A DNA stretch of 64,000 nucleotides. Origin: Bacteroidia bacterium. Its GTDB lineage: Bacteria > Bacteroidota > Bacteroidia > NS11-12g > UBA955. This document shows positions 3,623-56,472 of the stretch, piece by piece (position 1 is the stretch's first letter; each line of letters starts with the position of its first letter). The stretch spans positions 19,163 to 83,162 of the forward strand of contig JALOAG010000008.1 of assembly GCA_023228875.1 (NCBI GenBank), written 5' to 3'. A model generated the notes under the pieces. The model had not been told where the DNA came from, ran no database searches, and saw only the letters and a list, made by a program, of their open reading frames with translations. The position numbers and the translations under genes were made by a program.

Positions 3623-4477
3623 TTGTATTTTTGCAATCATAGAAATATGCGCTTAGCAACTCTCTTTATTATTATTATTTGTATGTTGTTTTATGGATTT
3701 GGAGTGAATCATACTACACAGATATTTGTGGAATTTCATAGATTGAAGGTAAGTAATGTTGTGTGCTTTTCTGCTGATAATCTTGGGAATATTTATACAG
3801 CAAATTCCAACGGAGATATTGTGAAATATGATAAAGAAGGGACTAAGACAGCTGTCGCAAATAATAAATTATTAGGGAATGTGTTCTCAATAGATGCCTC
3901 AAATCCGTTTGAAATCTATGTGTTTTACAAAGAACAGAATAAAGTAATATACTATGACAACCAGCTAAACATGCTTGGACAATCAAACTTGGAAGAAGGC
4001 GGATTCTTAATGTTAAGCACGTTGGCAAGAAGTTATGATGGAAAAATTTGGCTCTTTGATCAAAGTGATATGAAGTTGAAAAAGGTTAAGAAAGATCTAA
4101 ACCTTGAATTAAGTAGTGGCAATGTACGTGATTATGCTAACAATCCGCAATTTGCACCTGTTTACATTGGGGATATGAATAATGCGATTTATTTGTTTGA
4201 CAGCACCTCGGGACTTTACGAATTTGACAATTTCGGCAATTTTGTGAGAACAATTGAACTTACAAACGCCTCGCAATTTTTTGTTATGTCGGGCAAAATG
4301 TATTTCTTGAAAAATAACGCAATCTATTTATTGGATAAGACTTTTTTGCAAGAGAAATCTATCCCAATAGAGAACAAGCCGGAGCAAATTGCTGCCTTTA
4401 CGCTTTCTCCGGACAGGATGGTGTTGCAAAGCGGAAATGAATTAATTTTGTACGCCCTTACAAATAAAAATAAATAA
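3623..4477 (+). CDS. hypothetical secreted or membrane-anchored protein, possibly a beta-propeller. The real start is likely MRLATLF near 3647.
   Basis: It has an N-terminal hydrophobic segment and no recognisable catalytic motif. Confidence 0.4.
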
Positions 4478-46852: not shown

Positions 46853-49800
46853 GTTGTGATTTGCTTACAGTTCTTATCTTTGATGTGGTCATAAACAATG
46901 AACAAAGCCCTATACCGGCACGAACACAAGTTGTGATTTGCTTACAGTTCTTATCTTTGATGTGGTCATAAACAATATTTAAAAACAAAAGAAGACAGAG
47001 ACGTAGTTGTGATTTGCTTACAGTTCTTATCTTTGATGTGGTCATAAACAATAATGGGATACATGGAGAAGTACAGACATAATGAAAGAAGCCCTCAAAA
47101 AGAAGGCTCCTTAGTTCCTTACATTGCGAAGTCTATAAGATTAAGCAGTCCAGAACAACTGCAAATATACAACAATAATTTAAACCTAAGAATAAAAACT
47201 AAAAATTAGAAGATATGGCACAAGGCGGATTAGAATATGTAATAGACCTGATAGACGGTTCTTTTGGCAAGAACATTCAGAAGGCGCAGCAGCAGACAAG
47301 TAAGCTGGACGGCTTGGTTAAGCGCGTGGGGGCTGGCGTTGCAGCTGTGTTTACTGTGCAAAAAGTGTGGGGATTGGTGGAAGAGAGCACCAAAGTGCGG
47401 GCAGAGATGGAAGCTCTGGACACCAAGATTAAAATAGTGAGTGGTTCGACAGAACAATACACCCGCTACACTCAAGCGTTGGGTAGCATGATTGACAACC
47501 TTGCACTGCCTATCAAAGAGACAACAGAGTTGTGATTTGCTTACAGTTCTTATCTTTGATGTGGTCATAAACAATTGCCTGCTGAATAGGCTTCTTGGTA
47601 TGCATTGTTGTGATTTGCTTACAGTTCTTATCTTTGATGTGGTCATAAACAATGACAAAAACCGTTACAATCCGAATCAATTTGTTGTGATTTGCTTACA
47701 GTTCTTATCTTTGATGTGGTCATAAACAATTAGACTGTTGGTCTTTTCGTTCAAATACCTGTTGTGATTTGCTTACAGTTCTTATCTTTGATGTGGTCAT
47801 AAACAATTTCTTACAACGTACTTGTATGGTCTTACCCGTTGTGATTTGCTTACAGTTCTTATCTTTGATGTGGTCATAAACAATCCGAATACAACAGGTG
47901 GAAAATAATGGGTAGTTGTGATTTGCTTACAGTTCTTATCTTTGATGTGGTCATAAACAATGACAAGGGCAACGATAGTGAGCAGCCAATAGTTGTGATT
48001 TGCTTACAGTTCTTATCTTTGATGTGGTCATAAACAATCAACTTTTCTTCCTCAACTCGTTTTCTTCTGTTGTGATTTGCTTACAGTTCTTATCTTTGAT
48101 GTGGTCATAAACAATAAAAGTAAATGTCTTTGACTTTGTTGGGTAGTTGTGATTTGCTTACAGTTCTTATCTTTGATGTGGTCATAAACAATGTTGGCGA
48201 AGGGTAGGTCTGTGTCTGTTTCGTTGTGATTTGCTTACAGTTCTTATCTTTGATGTGGTCATAAACAATCTTATTGTTCTCATTATAAGCATTCTCAGGT
48301 TGTGATTTGCTTACAGTTCTTATCTTTGATGTGGTCATAAACAATTAGATAGTTACTTGATTGCATTATTCCAAAGTTGTGATTTGCTTACAGTTCTTAT
48401 CTTTGATGTGGTCATAAACAATTTTAAGGCTCTGGATGTGCCTAATGTGGAGTGTTGTGATTTGCTTACAGTTCTTATCTTTGATGTGGTCATAAACAAT
48501 AAATTGCCCTGCGTTTGCATCAATCTGCTTGTTGTGATTTGCTTACAGTTCTTATCTTTGATGTGGTCATAAACAATTGCTCAACTATTAGGTGGTAATG
48601 TATGCTAGTTGTGATTTGCTTACAGTTCTTATCTTTGATGTGGTCATAAACAATACAGGTTCTAGTTCCTTAAAGGTGTACAAAGTTGTGATTTGCTTAC
48701 AGTTCTTATCTTTGATGTGGTCATAAACAATTTGCTTACTTTGACATGTAGTAATTGTCCAGTTGTGATTTGCTTACAGTTCTTATCTTTGATGTGGTCA
48801 TAAACAATTCTCAATCTTATTCTAAATTTTACTCTTTGGTTGTGATTTGCTTACAGTTCTTATCTTTGATGTGGTCATAAACAATAAGTCATCTATTTAT
48901 ATACACTTGTATAGCGTTGTGATTTGCTTACAGTTCTTATCTTTGATGTGGTCATAAACAATTTTTCAATTACAAATCATTAATAAGTGCATGTTGTGAT
49001 TTGCTTACAGTTCTTATCTTTGATGTGGTCATAAACAATAGGGCATCCAGCTTCAATCATTCGCTTTACGTTGTGATTTGCTTACAGTTCTTATCTTTGA
49101 TGTGGTCATAAACAATGCCGGCAAATGAGTATAACGGCAAAACAGAGTTGTGATTTGCTTACAGTTCTTATCTTTGATGTGGTCATAAACAATTGCCAAC
49201 ATTCCAACGGCTGCCAACCTTTCGTTGTGATTTGCTTACAGTTCTTATCTTTGATGTGGTCATAAACAATTGTAAGAGTGGCAAGCACTACAGTTGAAGC
49301 GTTGTGATTTGCTTACAGTTCTTATCTTTGATGTGGTCATAAACAATAGATAGGTCGTCGCCCCCTTTTCGTTTTTAGTTGTGATTTGCTTACAGTTCTT
49401 ATCTTTGATGTGGTCATAAACAATGTCTCTCTCGTAGTTAAAATCGTCAGGGAGGTTGTGATTTGCTTACAGTTCTTATCTTTGATGTGGTCATAAACAA
49501 TTTAACTCTCTTTTGAAAAACGCAGTAGGGGGTTGTGATTTGCTTACAGTTCTTATCTTTGATGTGGTCATAAACAATGATTTTGCAGTAGAGAATTTAG
49601 AGAAACAAGTTGTGATTTGCTTACAGTTCTTATCTTTGATGTGGTCATAAACAATTATATTTGAGTAGCTTATTGACGGGTTTAGTTGTGATTTGCTTAC
49701 AGTTCTTATCTTTGATGTGGTCATAAACAATTAGCAGACGGAAATGGGAAAATAGTAATGAGTTGTGATTTGCTTACAGTTCTTATCTTTGATGTGGTCA

Positions 49801-49885
49801 TAAACAATCTTCTAAAGAATTTCCTATTTGTTTTATGTGTTGTGATTTGCTTACAGTTCTTATCTTTGATGTGGTCATAAACAAT
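46853..49885 (+). CRISPR. type II-C CRISPR array of 34 identical 47-bp direct repeats (GTTGTGATTTGCTTACAGTTCTTATCTTTGATGTGGTCATAAACAAT). It has 32 spacers of 29-31 bp plus one 476-bp insert in a spacer position. crRNA orientation is '+', as written.
   Basis: I enumerated every repeat by hand; starts are at 46853, 46930, 47006, 47529, 47607, 47684 ... 49839. Every copy looks identical. Orientation follows from the 19-nt complementarity between the repeat 5' end and the tracrRNA anti-repeat on the same strand. Confidence 0.97.
47053..47528 (+). other. 476-bp foreign insert in a spacer position (a 'mega-spacer'). It holds a phage-like intergenic region plus a 5'-truncated tail-tape-measure-like ORF; ATG is at 47215 and the ORF runs into the next repeat.
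   Basis: Intact repeats flank it precisely on both sides. The ORF 47215-47535 (MAQGGLEYVIDLIDGSFGKNIQKAQQ...) has no stop until the TGA inside repeat 4. Its N-terminus resembles tape-measure N-termini (lambda gpH-like MA..G.L.V.DL...F). Confidence 0.75.
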
Positions 49886-49956: not shown

Positions 49957-49990
49957 CAAGGAGGATTTATTTAGTAAATCCTCCTTTTTT

Positions 49991-49992
<2 letters not shown>
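49957..49992. terminator. bidirectional terminator between the array end and the cas2 3' end
   Basis: aaGGAGGATTTAtttagTAAATCCTCCttttttttt sits 1 nt beyond the cas2 stop on the minus strand and ~70 nt past the last repeat on the plus strand. Confidence 0.7.
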
Positions 49993-50341
<349 letters not shown>

Positions 50342-50350
50342 TCATACTTT

Positions 50351-51292
50351 TCAGAGGTTCATGGCTGGATAGGGGATTTTGTTTGCTTTGCCCTCAAAAC
50401 ATTTCACTAAACCGGCTGTGGTTCTTTGCAACGCAACCATTAAGGGGCTTTTGTTATTATCAATTTCAACATCTATTGCTGGTATGATTAACAACTCTTT
50501 CTTGATTTCTGTGGTTAATTCACCTTCAGTTTTTGGGAACTTGTGTAAAAGTCCACAAATCAGTTCATCCACAAATGGGCGATAAGGTTCCATAATATCA
50601 TCTGCCAGACAATATGAGTTGTATTGATTGCGATGATGAATCCCCAATGTTGGCAAGAGTCCGCTTCCAACCAATGAACGTGCCACGCAAGCACGTAAGA
50701 TAGAGTAGCCATAGTTCAGCCAAGTATTCGGTTTGTTGCCTTCGCGATCTCGAATGAAATTTGACTCGACTCCGAAAATATGTTGCCAATAGTAGGCTGC
50801 CGCCCTGCCTTCAAAGTTTTCAGGGTCTCCACTACGTACTTGTTTTGCCATGTTATACAGCATTTGTGCATCCCCTTGCCTTTGTTTTTCGAGCAAGATT
50901 CCTTGATTGTTTATTTTTTGTTTGACGGTTTGTTGCCATAGTTGTTTCTTTAGCGGAAGCGAGCTTTCAATCTGTGCCATAAAACGTTTTGCTTGCAGCG
51001 TGTTTCCGTCTAAATTAAGCATCATGCCGCATGGGTGGTGGGTTGAGTTACAGGTAATTAATGCCACATTGTTTTCTAATAGTTCACTCATCAGTGCTTG
51101 TGTCAATGTGATACGACTATGGTCTAAAATTAATAATCCGATGTCTTCAATGGGAATTGAAGCAATCGCTTCTTTTTTAACCTGCTCCGGCATATTCGCG
51201 TCTTGTTCAATCTCAGGCAGTTTTACAACCAATTGTTTAAGATTCAGACTTAAATAAGCCGGATTACCAAAATAGAGCGTGCGTTTAATCAT
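50351..51292 (-). CDS. cas1: CRISPR-associated integrase Cas1 (type II)
   Basis: It is 313 aa and begins MIKRTLYFGNPAYLSL...; operon context supports the call. Confidence 0.9.
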   Translation of the reverse strand: MIKRTLYFGNPAYLSLNLKQLVVKLPEIEQDANMPEQVKKEAIASIPIEDIGLLILDHSRITLTQALMSELLENNVALITCNSTHHPCGMMLNLDGNTLQAKRFMAQIESSLPLKKQLWQQTVKQKINNQGILLEKQRQGDAQMLYNMAKQVRSGDPENFEGRAAAYYWQHIFGVESNFIRDREGNKPNTWLNYGYSILRACVARSLVGSGLLPTLGIHHRNQYNSYCLADDIMEPYRPFVDELICGLLHKFPKTEGELTTEIKKELLIIPAIDVEIDNNKSPLMVALQRTTAGLVKCFEGKANKIPYPAMNL

Positions 51293-51295
51293 AGG

Positions 51296-52018
51296 CTAAA
51301 GAGTTAATTCATTTTCAATTTGCACGTATTCTTCAAACTGCTTTTCTTTTAGCGAGTGCTGTTCTTTATAGTTTTCCATGTTGTTAAACAAATGCTCAGC
51401 TAATTCGGTGTTACGGCTGTAAAAGCCGGTGTTGTTCGTCCATTCCCAATCGTTTATATCAGTAGTGAAATTGTGTTTTATCGGGTTGAGGTGAATATAG
51501 AGAATAATTGCTCGGAGGTAGTCATCGTCTTTGATTTCCTTCCGTTTGAAATTTTTAAGAAAAAGAGAACCGCGTCTTTGATAAACCTTATTAAAGGATT
51601 GGGTGTAACTGCTAAACAGATTAGCAAATTGTTTGCTGAGAAACTTTCCATCAATGGTTGGGATGGGGTTAGACTTTTCAACTGGTTTAAACTTTTCCAA
51701 AGTTCTAAACTTTGGAAAAGTTTGGAGTTGGTTAGGGAAGGTTGAGTTTGACGAAGTTTCCTCTATATTTGGTATATCGTTACTAAGCAGTACCTCTACT
51801 TCCCCTTTTAAAATCTTTTTAATTTCCTCCTTGCTTCTGATTTTGACTAAAAAATGAAAATGATTAGGCATCAGACACCAAGTCAGGGTCTCGGCTATGG
51901 GGCTGATATGCCGATTCCATTTGCTCAAGAAAAACAGATGGTTCTTTCTCTCAACAAATAGATTATCCGTTCCGTTTGCATGGTTGAAAATGTGGTAGTA
52001 TGTCTCAAAATTAAGCAT
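51296..52018 (-). CDS. HUH-superfamily Y1 transposase-family protein (IS200/IS605 TnpA or RayT-like, COG1943/PF01797-like), embedded in the cas operon
   Basis: It has an N-terminal YYHIFNHANG, the HuH motif PNHFHFLVK, and the C-terminal catalytic-Tyr region YQRRG...DDDYLRAIILYIHLNPIKHN, which matches the W-QRR...DExDY...Y-I-H-x-N-P-V-K pattern of RayT/IS200-like proteins. It is 46 nt after the cas9 stop and 3 nt before the cas1 start, on the same strand. Confidence 0.8.
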   Translation of the reverse strand: MLNFETYYHIFNHANGTDNLFVERKNHLFFLSKWNRHISPIAETLTWCLMPNHFHFLVKIRSKEEIKKILKGEVEVLLSNDIPNIEETSSNSTFPNQLQTFPKFRTLEKFKPVEKSNPIPTIDGKFLSKQFANLFSSYTQSFNKVYQRRGSLFLKNFKRKEIKDDDYLRAIILYIHLNPIKHNFTTDINDWEWTNNTGFYSRNTELAEHLFNNMENYKEQHSLKEKQFEEYVQIENELTL

Positions 52019-52064: not shown

Positions 52065-55000
52065 TTAATATTCTCCAATACTTACAATATCGCCCAAATG
52101 ATTGATGCGTACTTTGACAATCCCTTCAAAATTGGGTAAACTTTTAATATTTTTGAAAGTGATGTCTTTTAGTTCTTTCCTATCATCTATTGTTGTTTCT
52201 AAATGATGCCTAAAAACATATTCTCTCACAGCTGAATTGCCATAAATAAGTTTTGAAAATTTCTGCACCCTAAACAAATTTTGACTGATTTCCTTTTTAT
52301 TTTTCGGGTCTAACAAATCAATTTCATTGGGGTTAAATCCTGTTTTTTCATTTGGGAAAACAAACATTTCATTTTGTTTCAAGGTAAATAGAAACTGCCA
52401 GCCTAAATGTTGGTTATATGTTTTATCAATTATTGGTAATCCTTGATTAGAGCGAGCAACAGCTTCATAGAACGAAACCACATTTTCTTGTAAATTTCCT
52501 TTCTCATCTCTGTAAACTGCTACGTGGTGATTGTTTCCAGTGCTAACATAATCAACAGGAATTTTCATCCCATTTTCATCCAACATAAAATTACCAAAAT
52601 GGTCTTTTTTGTAGTGCAAAGGTTCAGCATTGCTAACACCGCTAATTGTAACACGTTTTATTGAAATTCCCTTTTCTTTATTGAGCCAAATCGGGTTTTT
52701 GTCTAAATCAGAAAATGCTTTTTTGGGATCTCCTCCGTATTCTTTTAAGCGATTTCTCATTATCGTTTTAATTCCCTCATCAACAATTTTACCTATTAAT
52801 TTATCATCTTTAAAATTTTCCGGGGTAATATCTTTTCTAATTGAAAAATCTTCTGTCAGCCATACTAGTTTTACAATTTCAGGAAGTGCTTTTGATTTTG
52901 CTTCATCCAAGTAAATCGGATTTTTGCTCAAAGCATTTTTTCCTGCAAAAACTTTCATCGGGTCATTGCCATTTTCTGATAATCTTTGTAATAAAAACTT
53001 TCTATAAAGAGGGTTAGCCACTTTATTTATGGTTTCAACGTCAAATTTTGTGCTTACTTTTTCTTCTTTACTTTCGTAATAATGGTATTTACCGTAAACA
53101 GTTTCTTTGTGCAACTGTCCTCTTGGAGTTAACGTTTCTTGAGCTTTGTCTTTGCCCGAAATTTTATTTTTATTTTTCGTAACTACCTTATTTTTTGCTT
53201 TATGCGAAATCAATACATTTTCCAAATGCTCTTTGGCTACCTGACGGAAGTTTGGTATTGGTTCTTTAAAAACACGCTTTTTGTTTCCGTCATTATCCAC
53301 TTTTATTTCGGTTTCCAAATTCTCAATGGCAACTATATTGCTGTGCAATTTATGATTTTCGTTTTTCCGTGCATTCAGGTAATTCAAATACTGAATATGA
53401 TTATGTTTGGTAAATGCAACCGTCAAAGCGTCCATAGCGTGATGACGGTGGTCGTTCCGTTTTGTCCAGTCTTTAATAACTTCTACTTGCTTTCCAAATT
53501 TCCGTTCTTGCATTTCAGTCAACCCTAAACTTCTGTATTTCGGCAGATTAAGCTCTTTCATTACATTAACCAAGTCCCAATCTTCACGAAGTCTGTCTGT
53601 AATACTTCCCGAAGTGGAAACTACTGAACGGGTAATTTTAAACAGCATTTCTTTTGCCTTTTTGGCAATGTATTGCGTTTCTCTTAAATCACGCTCTATA
53701 AATCCGTCCCCGATTTCAGACTCTTTTTTGAATAATTTTTGATATTTAGCTTTTGAAATCTTCTTTTCCATGTACAAAATTTCGACTACTGATTCATACT
53801 TAGAAAAATCACCTTCGCCTTTTGTGCTCATATAATCAAATGCTGTCTTGTTTCCCTTATCCAAATTTGCTTGTCTCGGTACTAAAACTTTATTTGAAAA
53901 ACTGTCATCAAACAAACGGGATTGAGGAATGATATGGTCTATATCATATTCTTTTCCAAATAACTTATGATAATCAATTTTGGTATTTGTATATAAATCT
54001 TTATAAGCATTAAAGGCTAATTCCTCATATAGTTTATATCTTATAATATCATTTTTTGTTGGATTCTGAACACTTGGAAAATCTCTCTTTATGATCGCTC
54101 TTATTTTATCATTCTCCAATTTTGCAGCATTGATATTCGTAGTCATTTCTGCTCTTTCCTGTGCATTTTTCTTTAATTCACGAGCCAATTCTATACGGAT
54201 TTCGTCAAATCGGAAATCGGGATTTCCTTTTCTATTTTTCTCAATCAATGTGTTTACCACATTGACCATTTGATTAAGAATTTTCTCCACCACAGGTTGA
54301 CGTAAACTGTTCTTTTTCAACAACTCCAATTTATCCTCCAATGGTCTATTGTCTATTTCCTCTTTGGTCAAAGAATGCTTGGAATGACGATAACCTGCCA
54401 ATTCGCAAGCCGTACTATAATTGTTTTCCTTAATAAACGGATAAACTTTTCGCATCGCTTTGGAAGAAAGATTTCCGTAATCATCAGATAAGGAAATATT
54501 AGCCAAAATCTGACTATGTTCTTTTTTGAAGCCGAATTTCTTTTCTAACAGTTCATACAATTTTTCGTTTCCACTTTGGGAATTATCGCCTTCATACGAA
54601 TACAATAAATGCCACAATTGATAAGATAGCTGTTCTTCAAACGCTGTTCCGTCCAGCTCTGCATCAAATTCCAAAATCTTCGTATCAATTTCCAATGTCT
54701 GAAAAATATCCCTGACCATCTTCTTGATTTCAATGGCAGGAACATTCAAATCGTCCAGTTCAACCTCATCTTTGTTGGATTTTACTTTCAGTAAATCTTT
54801 TACGTCATACCCCTCTATATCCAAAATTTTCAGATAGGCTTCATAAAGTGCTTTATTGGTTCGATTGCCCTCCAATTCAGAATAATTGATTTCCCAATCA
54901 GTAGGTTTGTACCCTAATAGTTCAATGATTTTATTGGCTTTTAAATTGCCTTTAAAGTTCAATTCATCAAACAAATGTTGCTTTGTTTCTAAATCGAGCG

Positions 55001-56342
55001 TAAATATTTCCTTTTCTTCTTCAAAAAGACTATCCTGATTGTCTTGTTTTGCTGTACGTTTCTTACTTCCTTTTTTTCGGATTAAAATATTGTTCAAGTT
55101 TTGCCAAATCTTAAACTCCTGAAATAAAGGCGAAGATTTTGGTGCAACACGCAAGCCAATTGTTTTTTTCTTTCCGTTTAATTCAACTTCCTTACTCTCA
55201 AATTCGCAAAAGCTGATTAAGCCTTTTTGAGATTTCAGTTTTCTTTGGTAAAAGATGATGATGTCCCGAATTTCTGTTTTGAGTTCTTCTGTTAATTCTG
55301 AATGATAGTTAGATTGAACTTCCCAAATTTTCTCAAACTCGTCCAAATAATCCTGACGATAAAACACTTGATTTTTCAATCGTGTATGACGGTTTTCCTT
55401 GATTTGCTGATACAAATATTGACCGACCGTCTGCTTGCTAAAATACAACTCCTTACTTCGATCTGAAATTGCACCAAGATAACCGCTCGAATTATTAAGG
55501 TTGTTGTTTATCTCTGTCAGAACAAAAGCGACCTCATCTTTTTCCAATTGTTTGGAAATTGCTTCACTTCGCCATTTGTAAGCCTGTATCTTTTTTTCTT
55601 CTCTTGTTCCTTTGTTTTCGGCTGTATTGAATTGATATTTTGTCCAAAACAAAGTGGAAGTTGCTCGTTGTCCTTTTCCTTTTAATTCTTTATAAAATTC
55701 ATCGGTAAGGATTTCAGGATAGAATTGTCTTTGAAAATCCCACACTTTGTCAAATTCAGCCTGCAAATCCGACCTGTAAAAATCAGGTATTGACTTTTTG
55801 CCTTCTTTCAAAAGCTGATAAACCAACTGGCCGGGCGTTATCTGTTCATCATACAACCGTTTCGCAACAGCCATTCCATCAATCGCCTGACCTTCATCTT
55901 CGTTCTTAGCTTTTCTACTGCTTTTATAACCTCGTTTTTTATTGATAGCTAAAAAAACACGTGCCAATTCATCTTTATCAATTTTCTCATAAGCGGCTTT
56001 TGATCGTAACATCCAAGTTGAAAAAGTGGTTTGTTTGCCATCTTCATTTAAAATAGAATTATTGTTAATGATATTAGCATTAACCAGTGCTTCAATTAAA
56101 TTTTTACGTCTGATTTTAAAACGGTCTAAATTTCTTCTAGCTCCACGTTTTAAGGTTCTTTCTTTATTAATCGAAAAAGATTTGCCTTTTTCAAAATTGG
56201 TTTGTTCATCTACAGTTAGTGAAATAATTCTAACACCTATTTGATTAATTTCAGAGTTTTTTAGTTTTTCATCTTCCAAGATGTGTGCAAAACCTATTGA
56301 GGATACTCCTAAATCCAGTCCAAGTATATTTTTTTTTGCCAT
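52065..56342 (-). CDS. cas9: Cas9 endonuclease, long Bacteroidota-type, type II-C (1425 aa)
   Basis: It has RuvC-I (ILGLDLGVSSIGFA), HNH (YDIDHIIPQSRLFDDSFSNKVLV) and RuvC-III (HHAMDALTVAF). No csn2 or cas4 is in the locus. Confidence 0.95.
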   Translation of the reverse strand: MAKKNILGLDLGVSSIGFAHILEDEKLKNSEINQIGVRIISLTVDEQTNFEKGKSFSINKERTLKRGARRNLDRFKIRRKNLIEALVNANIINNNSILNEDGKQTTFSTWMLRSKAAYEKIDKDELARVFLAINKKRGYKSSRKAKNEDEGQAIDGMAVAKRLYDEQITPGQLVYQLLKEGKKSIPDFYRSDLQAEFDKVWDFQRQFYPEILTDEFYKELKGKGQRATSTLFWTKYQFNTAENKGTREEKKIQAYKWRSEAISKQLEKDEVAFVLTEINNNLNNSSGYLGAISDRSKELYFSKQTVGQYLYQQIKENRHTRLKNQVFYRQDYLDEFEKIWEVQSNYHSELTEELKTEIRDIIIFYQRKLKSQKGLISFCEFESKEVELNGKKKTIGLRVAPKSSPLFQEFKIWQNLNNILIRKKGSKKRTAKQDNQDSLFEEEKEIFTLDLETKQHLFDELNFKGNLKANKIIELLGYKPTDWEINYSELEGNRTNKALYEAYLKILDIEGYDVKDLLKVKSNKDEVELDDLNVPAIEIKKMVRDIFQTLEIDTKILEFDAELDGTAFEEQLSYQLWHLLYSYEGDNSQSGNEKLYELLEKKFGFKKEHSQILANISLSDDYGNLSSKAMRKVYPFIKENNYSTACELAGYRHSKHSLTKEEIDNRPLEDKLELLKKNSLRQPVVEKILNQMVNVVNTLIEKNRKGNPDFRFDEIRIELARELKKNAQERAEMTTNINAAKLENDKIRAIIKRDFPSVQNPTKNDIIRYKLYEELAFNAYKDLYTNTKIDYHKLFGKEYDIDHIIPQSRLFDDSFSNKVLVPRQANLDKGNKTAFDYMSTKGEGDFSKYESVVEILYMEKKISKAKYQKLFKKESEIGDGFIERDLRETQYIAKKAKEMLFKITRSVVSTSGSITDRLREDWDLVNVMKELNLPKYRSLGLTEMQERKFGKQVEVIKDWTKRNDHRHHAMDALTVAFTKHNHIQYLNYLNARKNENHKLHSNIVAIENLETEIKVDNDGNKKRVFKEPIPNFRQVAKEHLENVLISHKAKNKVVTKNKNKISGKDKAQETLTPRGQLHKETVYGKYHYYESKEEKVSTKFDVETINKVANPLYRKFLLQRLSENGNDPMKVFAGKNALSKNPIYLDEAKSKALPEIVKLVWLTEDFSIRKDITPENFKDDKLIGKIVDEGIKTIMRNRLKEYGGDPKKAFSDLDKNPIWLNKEKGISIKRVTISGVSNAEPLHYKKDHFGNFMLDENGMKIPVDYVSTGNNHHVAVYRDEKGNLQENVVSFYEAVARSNQGLPIIDKTYNQHLGWQFLFTLKQNEMFVFPNEKTGFNPNEIDLLDPKNKKEISQNLFRVQKFSKLIYGNSAVREYVFRHHLETTIDDRKELKDITFKNIKSLPNFEGIVKVRINHLGDIVSIGEY

Positions 56343-56400: not shown

Positions 56401-56472
56401 ACTGTAAGCAAATCACAATAAGGATTATTTCCGTTGTGAAAACATTTAAGGCGGGGTAACTCGCCTTTTTTT
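56401..56472 (+). ncRNA. tracrRNA. The anti-repeat ACUGUAAGCAAAUCACAAU is followed by a stem-loop region and an intrinsic terminator (GGCGGGguaaCUCGCC-U7).
   Basis: Positions 56401-56419 are the reverse complement of repeat nt 1-18(19), with a G-U at the end. The terminator is at 56449-56472. It lies in the 197-nt gap upstream of cas9 and is transcribed divergently. Confidence 0.85.

What the first reader, a model, noticed from the sequence alone, without database searches (positions are those of the whole stretch)
51296..52018. HUH/Y1 (IS200/RayT-family) transposase-like gene tightly embedded between cas9 and cas1 of a type II-C operon
Seen in sequence: a 240-aa ORF on the cas strand carries the hallmarks of COG1943/PF01797 Y1 HUH enzymes. 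These are an N-terminal YYHIF..., the HuH box PNHFHFLV, and the catalytic-Tyr block QRR...DDDY...YIHLNPIKH. It starts 46 nt after the cas9 stop and ends 3 nt before the cas1 ATG. That leaves no room for the ~50-150-nt hairpin-bearing left and right ends an autonomous IS200/IS605 copy needs.

Established knowledge: canonical II-C operons are cas9-cas1-cas2 only. Cas9 descends from IscB, a cargo of IS200/IS605 elements whose transposase TnpA belongs to this family. RayT-type HUH enzymes act on single-stranded hairpin DNA.

Inference: this looks like an operon-integrated, possibly co-opted, ssDNA nicking/joining enzyme in a Cas9 system. It could be a decayed IS remnant, a relic of the IscB-to-Cas9 ancestry, or a novel accessory protein. 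Candidate accessory roles are prespacer generation, array maintenance or mobilisation. It sits in the same locus as an aberrant 476-bp spacer, which makes an adaptation-related role worth testing.
Basis: partly seen in the sequence, partly recalled or inferred. Interest (0 to 1): 0.85.

Follow-up and report, generated by a model that had tools for sequence, protein, structure and literature searches.

The report
RAYT-type nuclease gene inside Cas9 operon
The gene between cas9 and cas1 is an intact relative of the "domesticated transposase" RayT that carries its own DNA hairpin inside its coding sequence. The same four-gene layout recurs in well over a hundred Bacteroidota CRISPR loci, so it is a conserved and so far apparently undescribed companion of Cas9 systems, not a stray insertion sequence.

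Summary
Window 51296-52018 (-) is a 240-aa HUH/Y1 ORF, 46 nt after cas9 and 3 nt before cas1, in a complete type II-C locus.

- **Identity.** It is a RAYT/TnpA-REP-like enzyme. The best fold match is PDB 4ER8. His53/His55 are invariant or nearly so and Tyr174 is invariant. dN/dS is 0.05-0.18.
- **Not a stray IS.**
  - 56 of 79 scorable species genomes and 41 of 71 scorable metagenome loci carry homologues in the order cas9-HUH-cas1-cas2. They are always co-oriented, and the median gap to cas1 is 5 nt.
  - 5 of 6 Cas1-anchored loci have a RAYT-like gene in that slot.
  - A second, unrelated RAYT lineage fills the slot in an otherwise orthologous locus.
A perfect 16-bp hairpin sits inside the ORF at 51689-51723.
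  - It is present in 107 of 148 family genes and in 0 of 60 shuffled controls.
  - It shows compensatory changes and is read in two different frames.
  - In relatives it is repeated around the gene in locus-specific variants, as a REP-like cognate site would be.
- **Reading.** The best reading is a domesticated RAYT-REP unit integrated into the adaptation side of the operon. Its role in CRISPR biology is inferred, not shown.
- **Rivals.** The main rival is a commensal RAYT that hitch-hikes in this slot. The "decayed IS" and "IscB relic" readings are not supported.

The parts
51296..52018 (-). RAYT-type (TnpA-REP-like) HUH/Y1 gene, 240 aa. The HUH motif is His53-Phe54-His55 and the likely catalytic residue is Tyr174. 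Residues ~80-123 form a length-variable, disordered insert.
51689..51723 (.). Intragenic REP-like hairpin: AAACTTTTCCAAAGTT-3 nt-AACTTTGGAAAAGTTT. The stem is a perfect 16 bp. It encodes TFPKFRTLEKF in the disordered insert.
52065..56342 (-). cas9 (type II-C, 1425 aa)
50351..51292 (-). cas1 (313 aa). Its start lies 3 nt after the HUH stop. It is 100% identical to a Cas1 from a 'Bacteroidia bacterium' MAG.
49991..50335 (-). cas2 (114 aa)
46853..49885 (+). CRISPR array of 34 identical 47-nt repeats with 29-31-nt spacers, plus one 476-bp insert. The repeat strand that pairs with the tracrRNA is the + strand.
56401..56472 (+). Putative tracrRNA. The 18-nt anti-repeat is at 56401-56418, followed by a GC-rich hairpin and a T-run. 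It diverges from cas9.

Best explanation
The ORF is an intact RAYT-type (REP-associated tyrosine transposase-like) HUH single-strand-DNA endonuclease. It carries its own cognate REP-like hairpin inside its reading frame. It is this window's copy of a conserved four-gene Bacteroidota type II-C operon, cas9-RAYT-cas1-cas2. It is a domesticated, operon-integrated unit, not an autonomous or decayed insertion sequence.

**Shown**
- The fold, the catalytic residues and purifying selection on the protein.
- The conserved slot, orientation and tight spacing to cas1.
- Selection on the palindrome itself, independent of the peptide it encodes.
- Locus-specific copies of the same hairpin around the gene in relatives.
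- Replacement by a second RAYT lineage in the same slot.

**Inferred, by analogy with E. coli TnpA-REP**
- When the locus is single-stranded (replication or transcription), the protein binds the AACTTTTCCAAAGTT hairpin.
- It nicks next to the hairpin with Tyr174 and the His53/His55-bound metal, and can reseal the DNA.

**Inferred role.** The unit is retained because it serves the CRISPR locus, most probably the adaptation side (cas1-cas2). It may supply or process single-stranded DNA ends. Alternatively, it may create a recombinogenic nick at the boundary between the effector and adaptation modules.
For: **Fold and chemistry**
- The best PDB match is 4er8, TnpA-REP.
- H53, F54 and Y174 are invariant, and H55 and Y167 at least 90% conserved, in the 56-sequence alignment (>=97% across 120 sequences).
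- dN/dS is 0.05-0.18 in ten cas-linked pairs.

**Association with cas genes**
- 5 of 5 first context look-ups gave cas9-HUH-cas1-cas2.
- Genome survey: 52 loci cas1-adjacent, 4 with cas genes nearby, 23 without and 1 too short to score. Among hits at least 45% identical, 38 of 42 are cas-linked.
- Metagenome survey: 41 cas-linked against 30 not.
- The gene is always co-oriented with the cas genes.
- The median HUH-stop to cas1-start gap is 5 nt and 8 of 51 overlap. The median cas9-stop to HUH-start gap is 16 nt.
- Loci chosen through Cas1 alone: 5 of 6 have a RAYT-like gene in the slot.

**Convergent occupancy of the slot**
- L184 has Cas9, Cas1, Cas2 and DnaE 68, 76, 81 and 81% identical to the window. 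Yet its slot holds a different RAYT subclass (NHIH / WQ / YIVNNP) with its own internal palindrome.
- The nearest homologue of that protein (59% identity) also sits between cas9 and cas1. Its palindrome carries a compensatory change, GTGG..CCAC to GTAG..CTAC.

**The hairpin**
- 107 of 148 family genes contain a perfect stem of at least 10 bp. The longest stem in 60 codon-shuffled controls was 9 bp.
- In the structure count, 18 of 20 tested pairs show double changes. One-sided changes are few in the 15 core pairs.
- The hairpin is translated in two frames, 59 times in one and 32 in the other.
- Copies flanking the gene share locus-specific variants.

**Not mobile-element-like**
- 80 loci came from 79 assemblies.
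- The family has no match at E<=1e-10 in the phage records and gave one distant hit on plasmids.
Against: - There is no functional evidence of any kind.
- 30-40% of sampled family members sit among unrelated housekeeping genes, usually bracketed by hairpins 3-30 nt from the ORF ends, like a minimal IS200-like or 'REPtron' unit.
- cas-linked and unlinked copies interleave in a poorly resolved tree.
- HUH distances do not track Cas1 distances overall (Mantel r=0.02).
- The slot turns over faster than its neighbours. HUH identity is 42-51% where Cas1 identity is 71-76%.
- Hairpins can multiply locally: L186 has about 8 in tandem. That is selfish REP-like behaviour.
- Some II-C loci lack the gene. 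L187 is one. F. psychrophilum is described as cas9-cas1-cas2 only (PMC10309648).
- Both surveys kept the hits most similar to a cas-linked query, which inflates the linked fraction.
Confidence: 0.6

Rival explanations
1. This is a commensal or selfish RAYT-REP unit with no role in immunity. A small hairpin-bounded RAYT cassette repeatedly lands in, or recombines into, the cas9|cas1 junction. It persists there because co-oriented insertion is harmless and CRISPR loci travel horizontally. The tight spacing is later streamlining.
For: - Hairpin-bracketed copies occur outside cas loci in random contexts.
- Linked and unlinked copies interleave in the tree.
- The slot turns over fast and is sometimes filled by a different RAYT.
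- Hairpins proliferate locally.
- Both boundaries of the HUH gene are recombination breakpoints.
- No cellular function has been established for RAYTs in general (PMC5581495).
Against: - Tolerance alone cannot explain why about 60-90% of the nearer family members sit in one intergenic slot and one orientation. Positions upstream of cas9, after cas2 or elsewhere would be equally tolerated.
- Known HUH elements target only 4-5 nt (established knowledge of IS200/IS605).
- Most cas-linked copies have no flanking hairpins and no room for them.
- Selection on the protein is strong.
- Copies are single per genome and the family has no phage match and only one distant plasmid hit.
Confidence: 0.28
2. 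The hairpin is the functional part, acting as an operon-internal regulatory element. It could be an RNA stabiliser or processing site, or a DNA operator, that sets the cas9 to cas1-cas2 expression ratio. The protein would be secondary.
For: - The hairpin is more conserved than the peptide it encodes.
- Copies also occur in the cas1|cas2 and cas2|array spacers of some loci.
- The predicted fold is stable: RNA -20 kcal/mol with z -5.6, and DNA -15.6 kcal/mol with z -5.4.
- REPs are known mRNA stabilisers in enterobacteria (established knowledge).
Against: - G-U intermediates are few in the 15 core pairs. That points to a constraint on both DNA strands rather than on one RNA.
- The hairpin is not followed by a T-run.
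- The protein is itself under strong purifying selection with an intact active site.
- The same hairpins flank non-cas copies of the gene.
Confidence: 0.07
3. This is a decayed remnant of an IS200/IS605 insertion sequence.
For: - The Pfam Y1_Tnp hit is below threshold.
- There are no terminal hairpins in the window.
Against: - The ORF is full length.
- The catalytic residues are invariant or nearly so.
- dN/dS is 0.05-0.18.
- The slot is conserved across several Bacteroidota lineages.
- The nearest fold is RayT, not IS200 TnpA.
Confidence: 0.02
4. This is a relic of the IscB-to-Cas9 transition, that is, the original TnpA of the ancestral IS200/IS605 element.
For: Only the general fact that IscB elements carry a Y1 TnpA (Altae-Tran 2021, cited in PMC10910872).
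Against: - The enzyme is of the RAYT class, not the IS200/IS605 class.
- Nearly all sampled carriers are Bacteroidota II-C loci.
- cas9 next to it is exchanged in situ while HUH stays with cas1-cas2.
- Two unrelated RAYT lineages occupy the slot.
Confidence: 0.02

Closest known systems
E. coli TnpA-REP / RayT (PDB 4ER8) and the RAYT family of domesticated Y1 transposases
   Same: - HUH fold with a single catalytic tyrosine in a YI..NP helix, and the best structural match.
- Essentially one copy per genome.
- Palindromic hairpins next to the gene that co-vary with the locus.
   Different: - It scores below the NCBIfam equivalog cut-off (55.6 against 80 bits).
- It has about 45 extra C-terminal residues and an insert of about 40 residues.
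- The hairpins have no GTAG foot and are local rather than dispersed: 9 distant copies in 1.35 Mb of flanks and none in the other 63 kb of the window.
- No RAYT has been reported inside a cas operon in the papers I could search.
TnpA-Y1 subclass 2.4 (RAYT group 4) with REP sequences inserted in-frame inside the tnpA-REP gene (Quentin et al. 2018, PMC6006769)
   Same: [quoted passage not shown]
- The subclass occurs in Bacteroidetes.
- The L184 and L190 proteins match the 2.4 signature (NH[IFV]H, WQ, YIxNNP, GT[AG]G 'double foot').
   Different: - The window's protein has NHFH, F-K and YIHLNP. That signature is closer to the second motif set of subclass 2.1.
- Its hairpin is AT-rich and has no GT[AG]G foot.
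- That paper does not mention CRISPR (0 occurrences).
IS200/IS605 TnpA, the partner of IscB and TnpB
   Same: - Y1 HUH chemistry and hairpin recognition.
- Some non-cas relatives look like a roughly 0.75-kb hairpin-ORF-hairpin unit.
   Different: - No flanking ends in the window.
- Not multi-copy.
- Fold matches to the IS200/IS608 TnpA structures are much weaker (E about 0.02) than to RayT.
- The Pfam score is below threshold.
Fourth genes of type II systems: Csn2 (II-A), Cas4 (II-B) and PcrIIC1 (II-C accessory; PMC12669027, PMC13153721)
   Same: A conserved extra gene in the cas9-cas1-cas2 operon of a subset of loci, so a candidate accessory factor.
   Different: - It is unrelated in fold to all three. 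PcrIIC1 is a PIN-domain protein.
- It lies between cas9 and cas1, not after cas2.
- No function has been tested.
- PADLOC has no model for it.

Membership tests
HUH / Y1 transposase superfamily | HUH metal-binding motif on a beta-strand plus one catalytic Tyr on the following helix | tested here: met
   His53-Phe54-His55 lies on strand 53-60. Tyr174 lies in helix 165-181 and aligns to the tyrosine of YIYINP in 4er8. H53, F54 and Y174 are invariant and H55 is at least 90% conserved.
HUH / Y1 transposase superfamily | Pfam PF01797 (Y1_Tnp) above the gathering score | tested here: not met
   19.8 bits against a cut-off of 23, and only residues 43-72 match.
RAYT / TnpA-REP | Fold closest to TnpA-REP | tested here: met
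   Foldseek against the PDB: 4er8_A ranks first with E=1.2e-5 and target TM-score 0.60. The IS200/IS608 TnpA structures score E about 0.02.
RAYT / TnpA-REP | NCBIfam NF047646 (REP_Tyr_transpos, equivalog) above its cut-off | tested here: not met
   55.6 bits (E=5e-15) against a cut-off of 80. The protein is related but not an equivalog.
RAYT / TnpA-REP | Single or low copy per genome, not on plasmids or phages | tested here: met
   - 80 loci came from 79 assemblies.
- There is no second copy in the window.
- There was one distant plasmid hit and no phage hit.
- Whole genomes could not be read.
RAYT / TnpA-REP | Cognate palindromes (REP) flanking the gene | tested here: inconclusive
   - This holds in many relatives, with hairpins 3-30 nt from the ORF ends and locus-specific variants.
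- In the window only the intragenic copy exists.
RAYT / TnpA-REP | REP/REPIN population dispersed through the genome | tested here: not met
   - There are 9 family hairpins more than 400 nt from the gene in 1.35 Mb of flanks.
- There are none in the other 63 kb of the window.
- Whole-genome counts were not possible.
Autonomous IS200/IS605 insertion sequence | Subterminal left and right hairpin ends around the transposase gene | tested here: not met
   The flanks are 46 nt and 3 nt and contain no hairpin.
Autonomous IS200/IS605 insertion sequence | Several near-identical copies per genome | tested here: not met
   - The window holds one copy.
- The best full-length database homologue is 57% identical.
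- Each assembly has one locus.
Type II-C CRISPR-Cas | cas9, cas1, cas2, tracrRNA and a CRISPR array, with no csn2 or cas4 | tested here: met
CRISPR accessory (cas-linked) gene | Non-random, evolutionarily conserved linkage to cas genes | tested here: met
   - 56 of 79 scorable genome loci and 41 of 71 scorable metagenome loci are cas-linked.
- 5 of 6 Cas1-anchored loci have a RAYT-like gene in the slot.
- A second RAYT lineage is cas-linked in both of its sampled members.
- No formal genome-wide enrichment statistic was computed.
CRISPR accessory (cas-linked) gene | Demonstrated contribution to adaptation, expression or interference | not testable with these tools
   This needs genetics or biochemistry.

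The most novel reading that the evidence does not exclude
A co-opted RAYT is a genuine fourth component of a Bacteroidota type II-C variant. Under this reading its hairpin-directed single-strand nicking and joining activity works with Cas1-Cas2. It could generate 3'-OH single-stranded ends for prespacers. Or it could place a programmed nick at the effector/adaptation boundary that drives the in situ cas9 swapping seen in Flavobacteriales. This would be the first cellular function assigned to any RAYT. It would also be a functional counterpart of Csn2 or Cas4 for II-C systems.
Probability: 0.3. Interest if true: 0.9.

Novelty: new variant of a known kind. Interest (0 to 1): 0.74.

Why it matters
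Two open questions meet in this locus.

- **What RAYTs are for.** RAYTs are widespread "domesticated transposases" and no cellular function has been established for them.
- **How II-C systems adapt.** Type II-C systems lack the fourth adaptation gene (Csn2 or Cas4) that II-A and II-B have.

Most near members of this RAYT lineage are wired into the cas9-cas1-cas2 operon. A second RAYT lineage has taken the same slot independently. Together these give a concrete, genetically tractable place to test a RAYT function.

Cultured strains with the architecture exist: Niabella drilacis DSM 25811, Pedobacter puniceum, Pedobacter alpinus, Hydrotalea flava and Paenimyroides aquimaris.

The gene also marks the exact boundary at which cas9 genes are exchanged between otherwise near-identical loci.

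Even if the unit turns out to be only a hitch-hiker, it is a clean case of a transposase-derived element specialised on a CRISPR operon. Annotators should also stop calling these genes plain "transposase" insertions.

Tried and rejected
- **Second copy or further hairpins in the window.** None found.
- **PADLOC models.** No hit.
- **Sequence search of the PDB.** Only a marginal hit to 4er8 (E=0.22). The fold search was needed.
- **Literature.** Nine valid searches found no paper that links a Y1/RAYT gene to cas9-cas1.
  - I read the CRISPR-linked-genes preprint, the 2023 FLSHclust paper, the 2025 classification and the Pro-CRISPR guide. None mentions the association.
  - Zhang et al. 2024 (Nature 630:484), on "novel associated genes" of II-C loci, is not held and could not be checked.
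- **Neighbours of non-cas copies.** There is no common neighbourhood, only assorted housekeeping genes.
- **HUH-Cas1 co-evolution by a Mantel test.** No overall correlation (r=0.02). It is informative only at short range.
- **Hairpin as a phage target.** Only 11 IMG/VR contigs carry it, and one of those is a cas fragment.
- **Similarity between the hairpin and the CRISPR repeat or leader.** None was seen by eye.
- **Long inserts in arrays of HUH-bearing loci.** Five arrays have an insert of 480 bp or more (the window's own, and 4 of the 35 arrays scanned). Without a control set of HUH-less arrays this says nothing.
- **Co-folding HUH with Cas1.** Not attempted.
Full report
**1.

The window carries a complete type II-C locus on the minus strand.
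- cas9 is 52065-56342, cas1 is 50351-51292 and cas2 is 49991-50335.
- There are 34 identical 47-nt repeats at 46853-49885.
- A tracrRNA anti-repeat lies at 56401-56418 on the plus strand, upstream of and divergent from cas9.

Between cas9 and cas1 lies a 240-aa ORF (51296-52018, minus strand). It starts 46 nt after the cas9 stop and ends 3 nt before the cas1 ATG.

Profile searches alone are weak. Pfam Y1_Tnp gives 19.8 bits against a cut-off of 23. NCBIfam REP_Tyr_transpos gives 55.6 bits (E=5e-15) against a cut-off of 80.

An AlphaFold model built on 56 homologues (pLDDT 83.8) settles the fold. The best PDB match is the E. coli REP-associated tyrosine transposase 4er8 (E=1.2e-5). The IS200, IS608 and ISDra2 TnpA structures follow at E about 0.02.

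In the 56-sequence alignment H53, F54 and Y174 are invariant, and H55 and Y167 are at least 90% conserved (all are >=97% conserved across 120 sequences). Tyr174 aligns with the tyrosine of the YIYINP motif of 4er8. From memory, that residue is the catalytic Tyr115.

**2. It is not a stray insertion sequence**

*Copy number and mobility.*
- There is no second copy in the window.
- The best full-length homologue among 5.8 billion proteins is 57% identical.
- The family has no phage match at E<=1e-10 and only one distant plasmid hit.

*Context of homologues.*
- All five homologues looked up first lie between cas9 and cas1.
- A scan of one genome per species found 331 loci. Of the best 80, from 79 assemblies, 52 have cas1 directly downstream. 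Four more have cas genes nearby, 23 have none and 1 is too short.
- Among hits at least 45% identical, 38 of 42 are cas-linked. Below 45% about half are.
- A metagenome scan gave 41 linked, 30 unlinked and 9 too short to score.
- Carriers include Flavobacteriales, Chitinophagales, Sphingobacteriales, Bacteroidales and Cytophagales. Cultured strains include Niabella drilacis, Pedobacter puniceum, P. alpinus, Hydrotalea flava and Paenimyroides aquimaris.

*Operon integration.*
- The gene is always co-oriented with the cas genes.
- The median distance from its stop to the cas1 start is 5 nt, and 8 of 51 overlap. The median distance from the cas9 stop is 16 nt.
- dN/dS in ten closely related cas-linked pairs is 0.05-0.18, against 0.03-0.07 for Cas1.

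Both surveys kept the hits most similar to a cas-linked query, so the fractions are upper-biased. To avoid that bias I sampled six loci through Cas1 alone, at 61-76% identity to the window's Cas1.
- Three have the same family in the slot, at 51, 43 and 36% identity.
- One has a more distant RAYT-like gene, at 25% identity.
- One has a different RAYT subclass.
- One has nothing between cas9 and cas1.

**3. A second RAYT lineage uses the same slot**

L184 is orthologous to the window. DnaE is 81% identical, Cas9 68%, Cas1 76% and Cas2 81%. Yet its slot holds a protein that shares only the HUH region with the window's.
- It has NHIH, WQ and YIVNNP motifs.
- It has its own GC-rich internal palindrome, TGGTGGGGACAACGCA|TGCGTTGTCCCCACCA.
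- This is the signature that Quentin et al. (PMC6006769) give for TnpA-Y1 subclass 2.4: a GT[AG]G "double foot" and a REP inserted in the gene.

Its nearest homologue (59% identity) again lies between cas9 and cas1, in a locus with 58% Cas1 identity and 26% Cas9 identity. The palindrome there carries a compensatory change, GTAG..CTAC. So having a RAYT in this slot is more conserved than which RAYT it is.

**4.

Inside the ORF, at 51689-51723, is a perfect 16-bp inverted repeat with a 3-nt loop.
- As DNA it folds at -15.6 kcal/mol (z = -5.4). As RNA it folds at -20 kcal/mol.
- It lies in the length-variable, low-confidence insert between the HUH strand with its following helix and the long helix that precedes the tyrosine helix (residues 83-114 have pLDDT below 50).

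Several lines show that selection acts on the palindrome itself.
- Of 148 distinct family genes, 107 contain a perfect stem of at least 10 bp, mostly at the same relative position. The split is 77 of 90 cas-linked and 28 of 48 unlinked. None of 60 codon-shuffled controls exceeded 9 bp.
- The alignment used 73 sequences that were selected for having a hairpin, so it leans towards the structure. In it the 15 core pairs are paired in 95% or more of the sequences. Of the 20 pairs tested, 18 show changes on both sides. One-sided (G-U type) changes are few in the core pairs. Every measure beats the shuffled and slid controls.
- The same DNA is translated as TFPKFxTLEKL in 59 genes and as NFSKVxNFGKV in 32. 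The constraint is therefore on the nucleic acid and not on the peptide. The lack of wobble pairs points to DNA rather than a single RNA strand.

In many relatives the same hairpin also sits just outside the gene, often 3-30 nt from the ORF ends.
- It carries locus-specific variants shared by all copies of a locus (L030, L043, L090, L074/L085).
- It sometimes lies in the cas1|cas2 or cas2|array spacers (L035, L038, L050, L052).
- In L186 it forms a run of about eight copies between HUH and cas1.
- Away from the gene it is rare: 9 copies in 1.35 Mb of flanks and none elsewhere in the window.

This is how a RAYT and its cognate REP behave, except that the copies stay local. In-gene REPs have been described for subclass 2.4 (PMC6006769). 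The window's protein has a different motif signature (NHFH, YIHLNP), so I do not assign it to a subclass.

**5. Relation to the neighbouring modules**

Overall, HUH distances do not correlate with Cas1 distances (Mantel r=0.02). At short range the picture is clear.
- In pairs with nearly identical cas1-cas2 but unrelated cas9, DNA identity jumps from about 40% to about 90% at or just upstream of the HUH start codon. Examples are L126/L132, L038/L050 and L042/L152.
- In other pairs (L011/L107/L116) HUH travels with cas9 and the break is at the HUH|cas1 border.

The gene thus sits at the junction where effector and adaptation modules are exchanged. The 2025 classification reported this phenomenon for Flavobacteriales (PMC12669027). 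The gene is itself an exchangeable cassette. Against the window, L185 and L186 show 51% and 43% HUH identity but 76% and 71% Cas1 identity.

**6. Interpretation**

*Shown.* This is an active-looking RAYT-type enzyme with a co-evolving palindrome. It is integrated in one slot and one orientation of a II-C operon across several Bacteroidota lineages. A second RAYT lineage occupies the same slot convergently.

*Inferred from E. coli TnpA-REP biochemistry.* The protein binds the hairpin in single-stranded DNA and nicks and rejoins next to it through Tyr174.

*Inferred role.* I favour retention by selection as an accessory of the locus, most likely on the adaptation side (confidence 0.6 for the overall statement). 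Two observations drive this. Tolerance of insertion cannot explain why most near members occupy this one slot. And two lineages converged on it.

*The main rival (0.28).* A commensal RAYT-REP cassette could use this junction as a hot spot or safe haven. In its favour:
- Hairpin-bracketed copies lie among housekeeping genes.
- Linked and unlinked copies interleave in the tree.
- The slot turns over fast.
- Hairpins multiply locally.

*Minor rivals.* An RNA-level or operator-like regulatory role for the hairpin (0.07) can coexist with either view. The "decayed IS" and "IscB relic" readings are contradicted by purifying selection, RAYT-type affinity, the largely Bacteroidota distribution and free cas9 swapping.

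**7. Novelty and limits**

In the open-access library searched, no paper links a Y1/RAYT gene to cas9-cas1.
- The RAYT phylogenomics paper does not mention CRISPR.
- The 2025 classification passages found name only PcrIIC1 as a II-C accessory.
- PADLOC has no model for the family.
- Zhang et al. 2024, on "novel associated genes" of II-C loci, could not be read. Prior notice there cannot be excluded.

Limits of this work:
- There was no whole-genome access for hairpin counts or copy number.
- The surveys are biased towards the query.
- The tree is neighbour-joining and poorly resolved.
- Gene calls in the fetched loci are my own simple ORF calls.
- MAG taxonomic labels may be wrong: two loci are labelled Hungatella and one Bacillota.

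Noticed in passing
window 47053-47528: A 476-bp unique segment sits between two intact repeats where a 30-nt spacer should be. Its GC content is 43%, against 37% for the window. It contains an ORF (47215-47535, +) whose product weakly matches the N-terminus of phage tail tape-measure proteins (PHROG 9959, E=1.9e-5). It looks like an oversized phage-derived 'spacer'. No spacer duplication was seen around it.
   Followed up: partly
window 56401-56472 (+) and 46853-49885: The tracrRNA is encoded upstream of and divergent from cas9. The repeat strand that pairs with it is the + strand. The array is therefore transcribed towards cas2, convergent with the cas operon. A bidirectional-looking terminator hairpin lies at 49958-49986.
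   Followed up: partly
L186:6427-6979: About eight tandem copies of the family hairpin, with a period of about 60 nt, fill the 580-nt gap between the HUH gene and cas1. This locus has a Cas1 71% identical to the window's. It resembles a BIME-like cluster of REPs.
   Followed up: partly
L184:6271-6948 and L190:6001-6732: A different RAYT subclass (NH[IV]H / WQ / YI[IV]NNP) occupies the cas9|cas1 slot. It has an internal 16+16-nt palindrome with GT[AG]G..C[TC]AC feet. L184 is otherwise orthologous to the window's locus.
   Followed up: yes
pairs L126/L132, L004/L094, L038/L050, L042/L152 (region -900..+900 around HUH): Loci with 93-97% identical Cas1 proteins carry unrelated cas9 genes (about 30% protein identity). 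In L126/L132, L038/L050 and L042/L152 the breakpoint falls at or within about 100 nt upstream of the HUH start codon. In L004/L094 it lies about 650 nt upstream, beyond the two extra genes.
   Followed up: partly
L004:6972-7924 (also L005, L006); L189:5622-6092; L011:9854-10717: Some HUH-bearing loci carry further extra genes. L004 has a 114-aa ORF plus a PRiA4_ORF3-domain protein between cas9 and HUH. L189 has a DUF6036 protein there. L011 has a HIRAN-domain protein directly after cas2.
   Followed up: no
L060:31-2682 and 3751-4416: A family member scored as not cas-linked lies about 1 kb from a CRISPR array of at least 9 repeats with no cas genes in reach. It may be the remains of a II-C locus.
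   Followed up: no
L011, L102, L124, L127 arrays: Four of 35 arrays in HUH-bearing loci contain inserts of 0.5-3.5 kb between repeats. L011's includes a HicA toxin gene. There is no control set, so the meaning is unknown.
   Followed up: no
L124:10001-10084, L134:9977-10324, L139:9977-10462: Three cas-linked copies appear truncated or frameshifted, with ORFs of 27, 115 and 161 aa. The gene is therefore occasionally lost in place.
   Followed up: no
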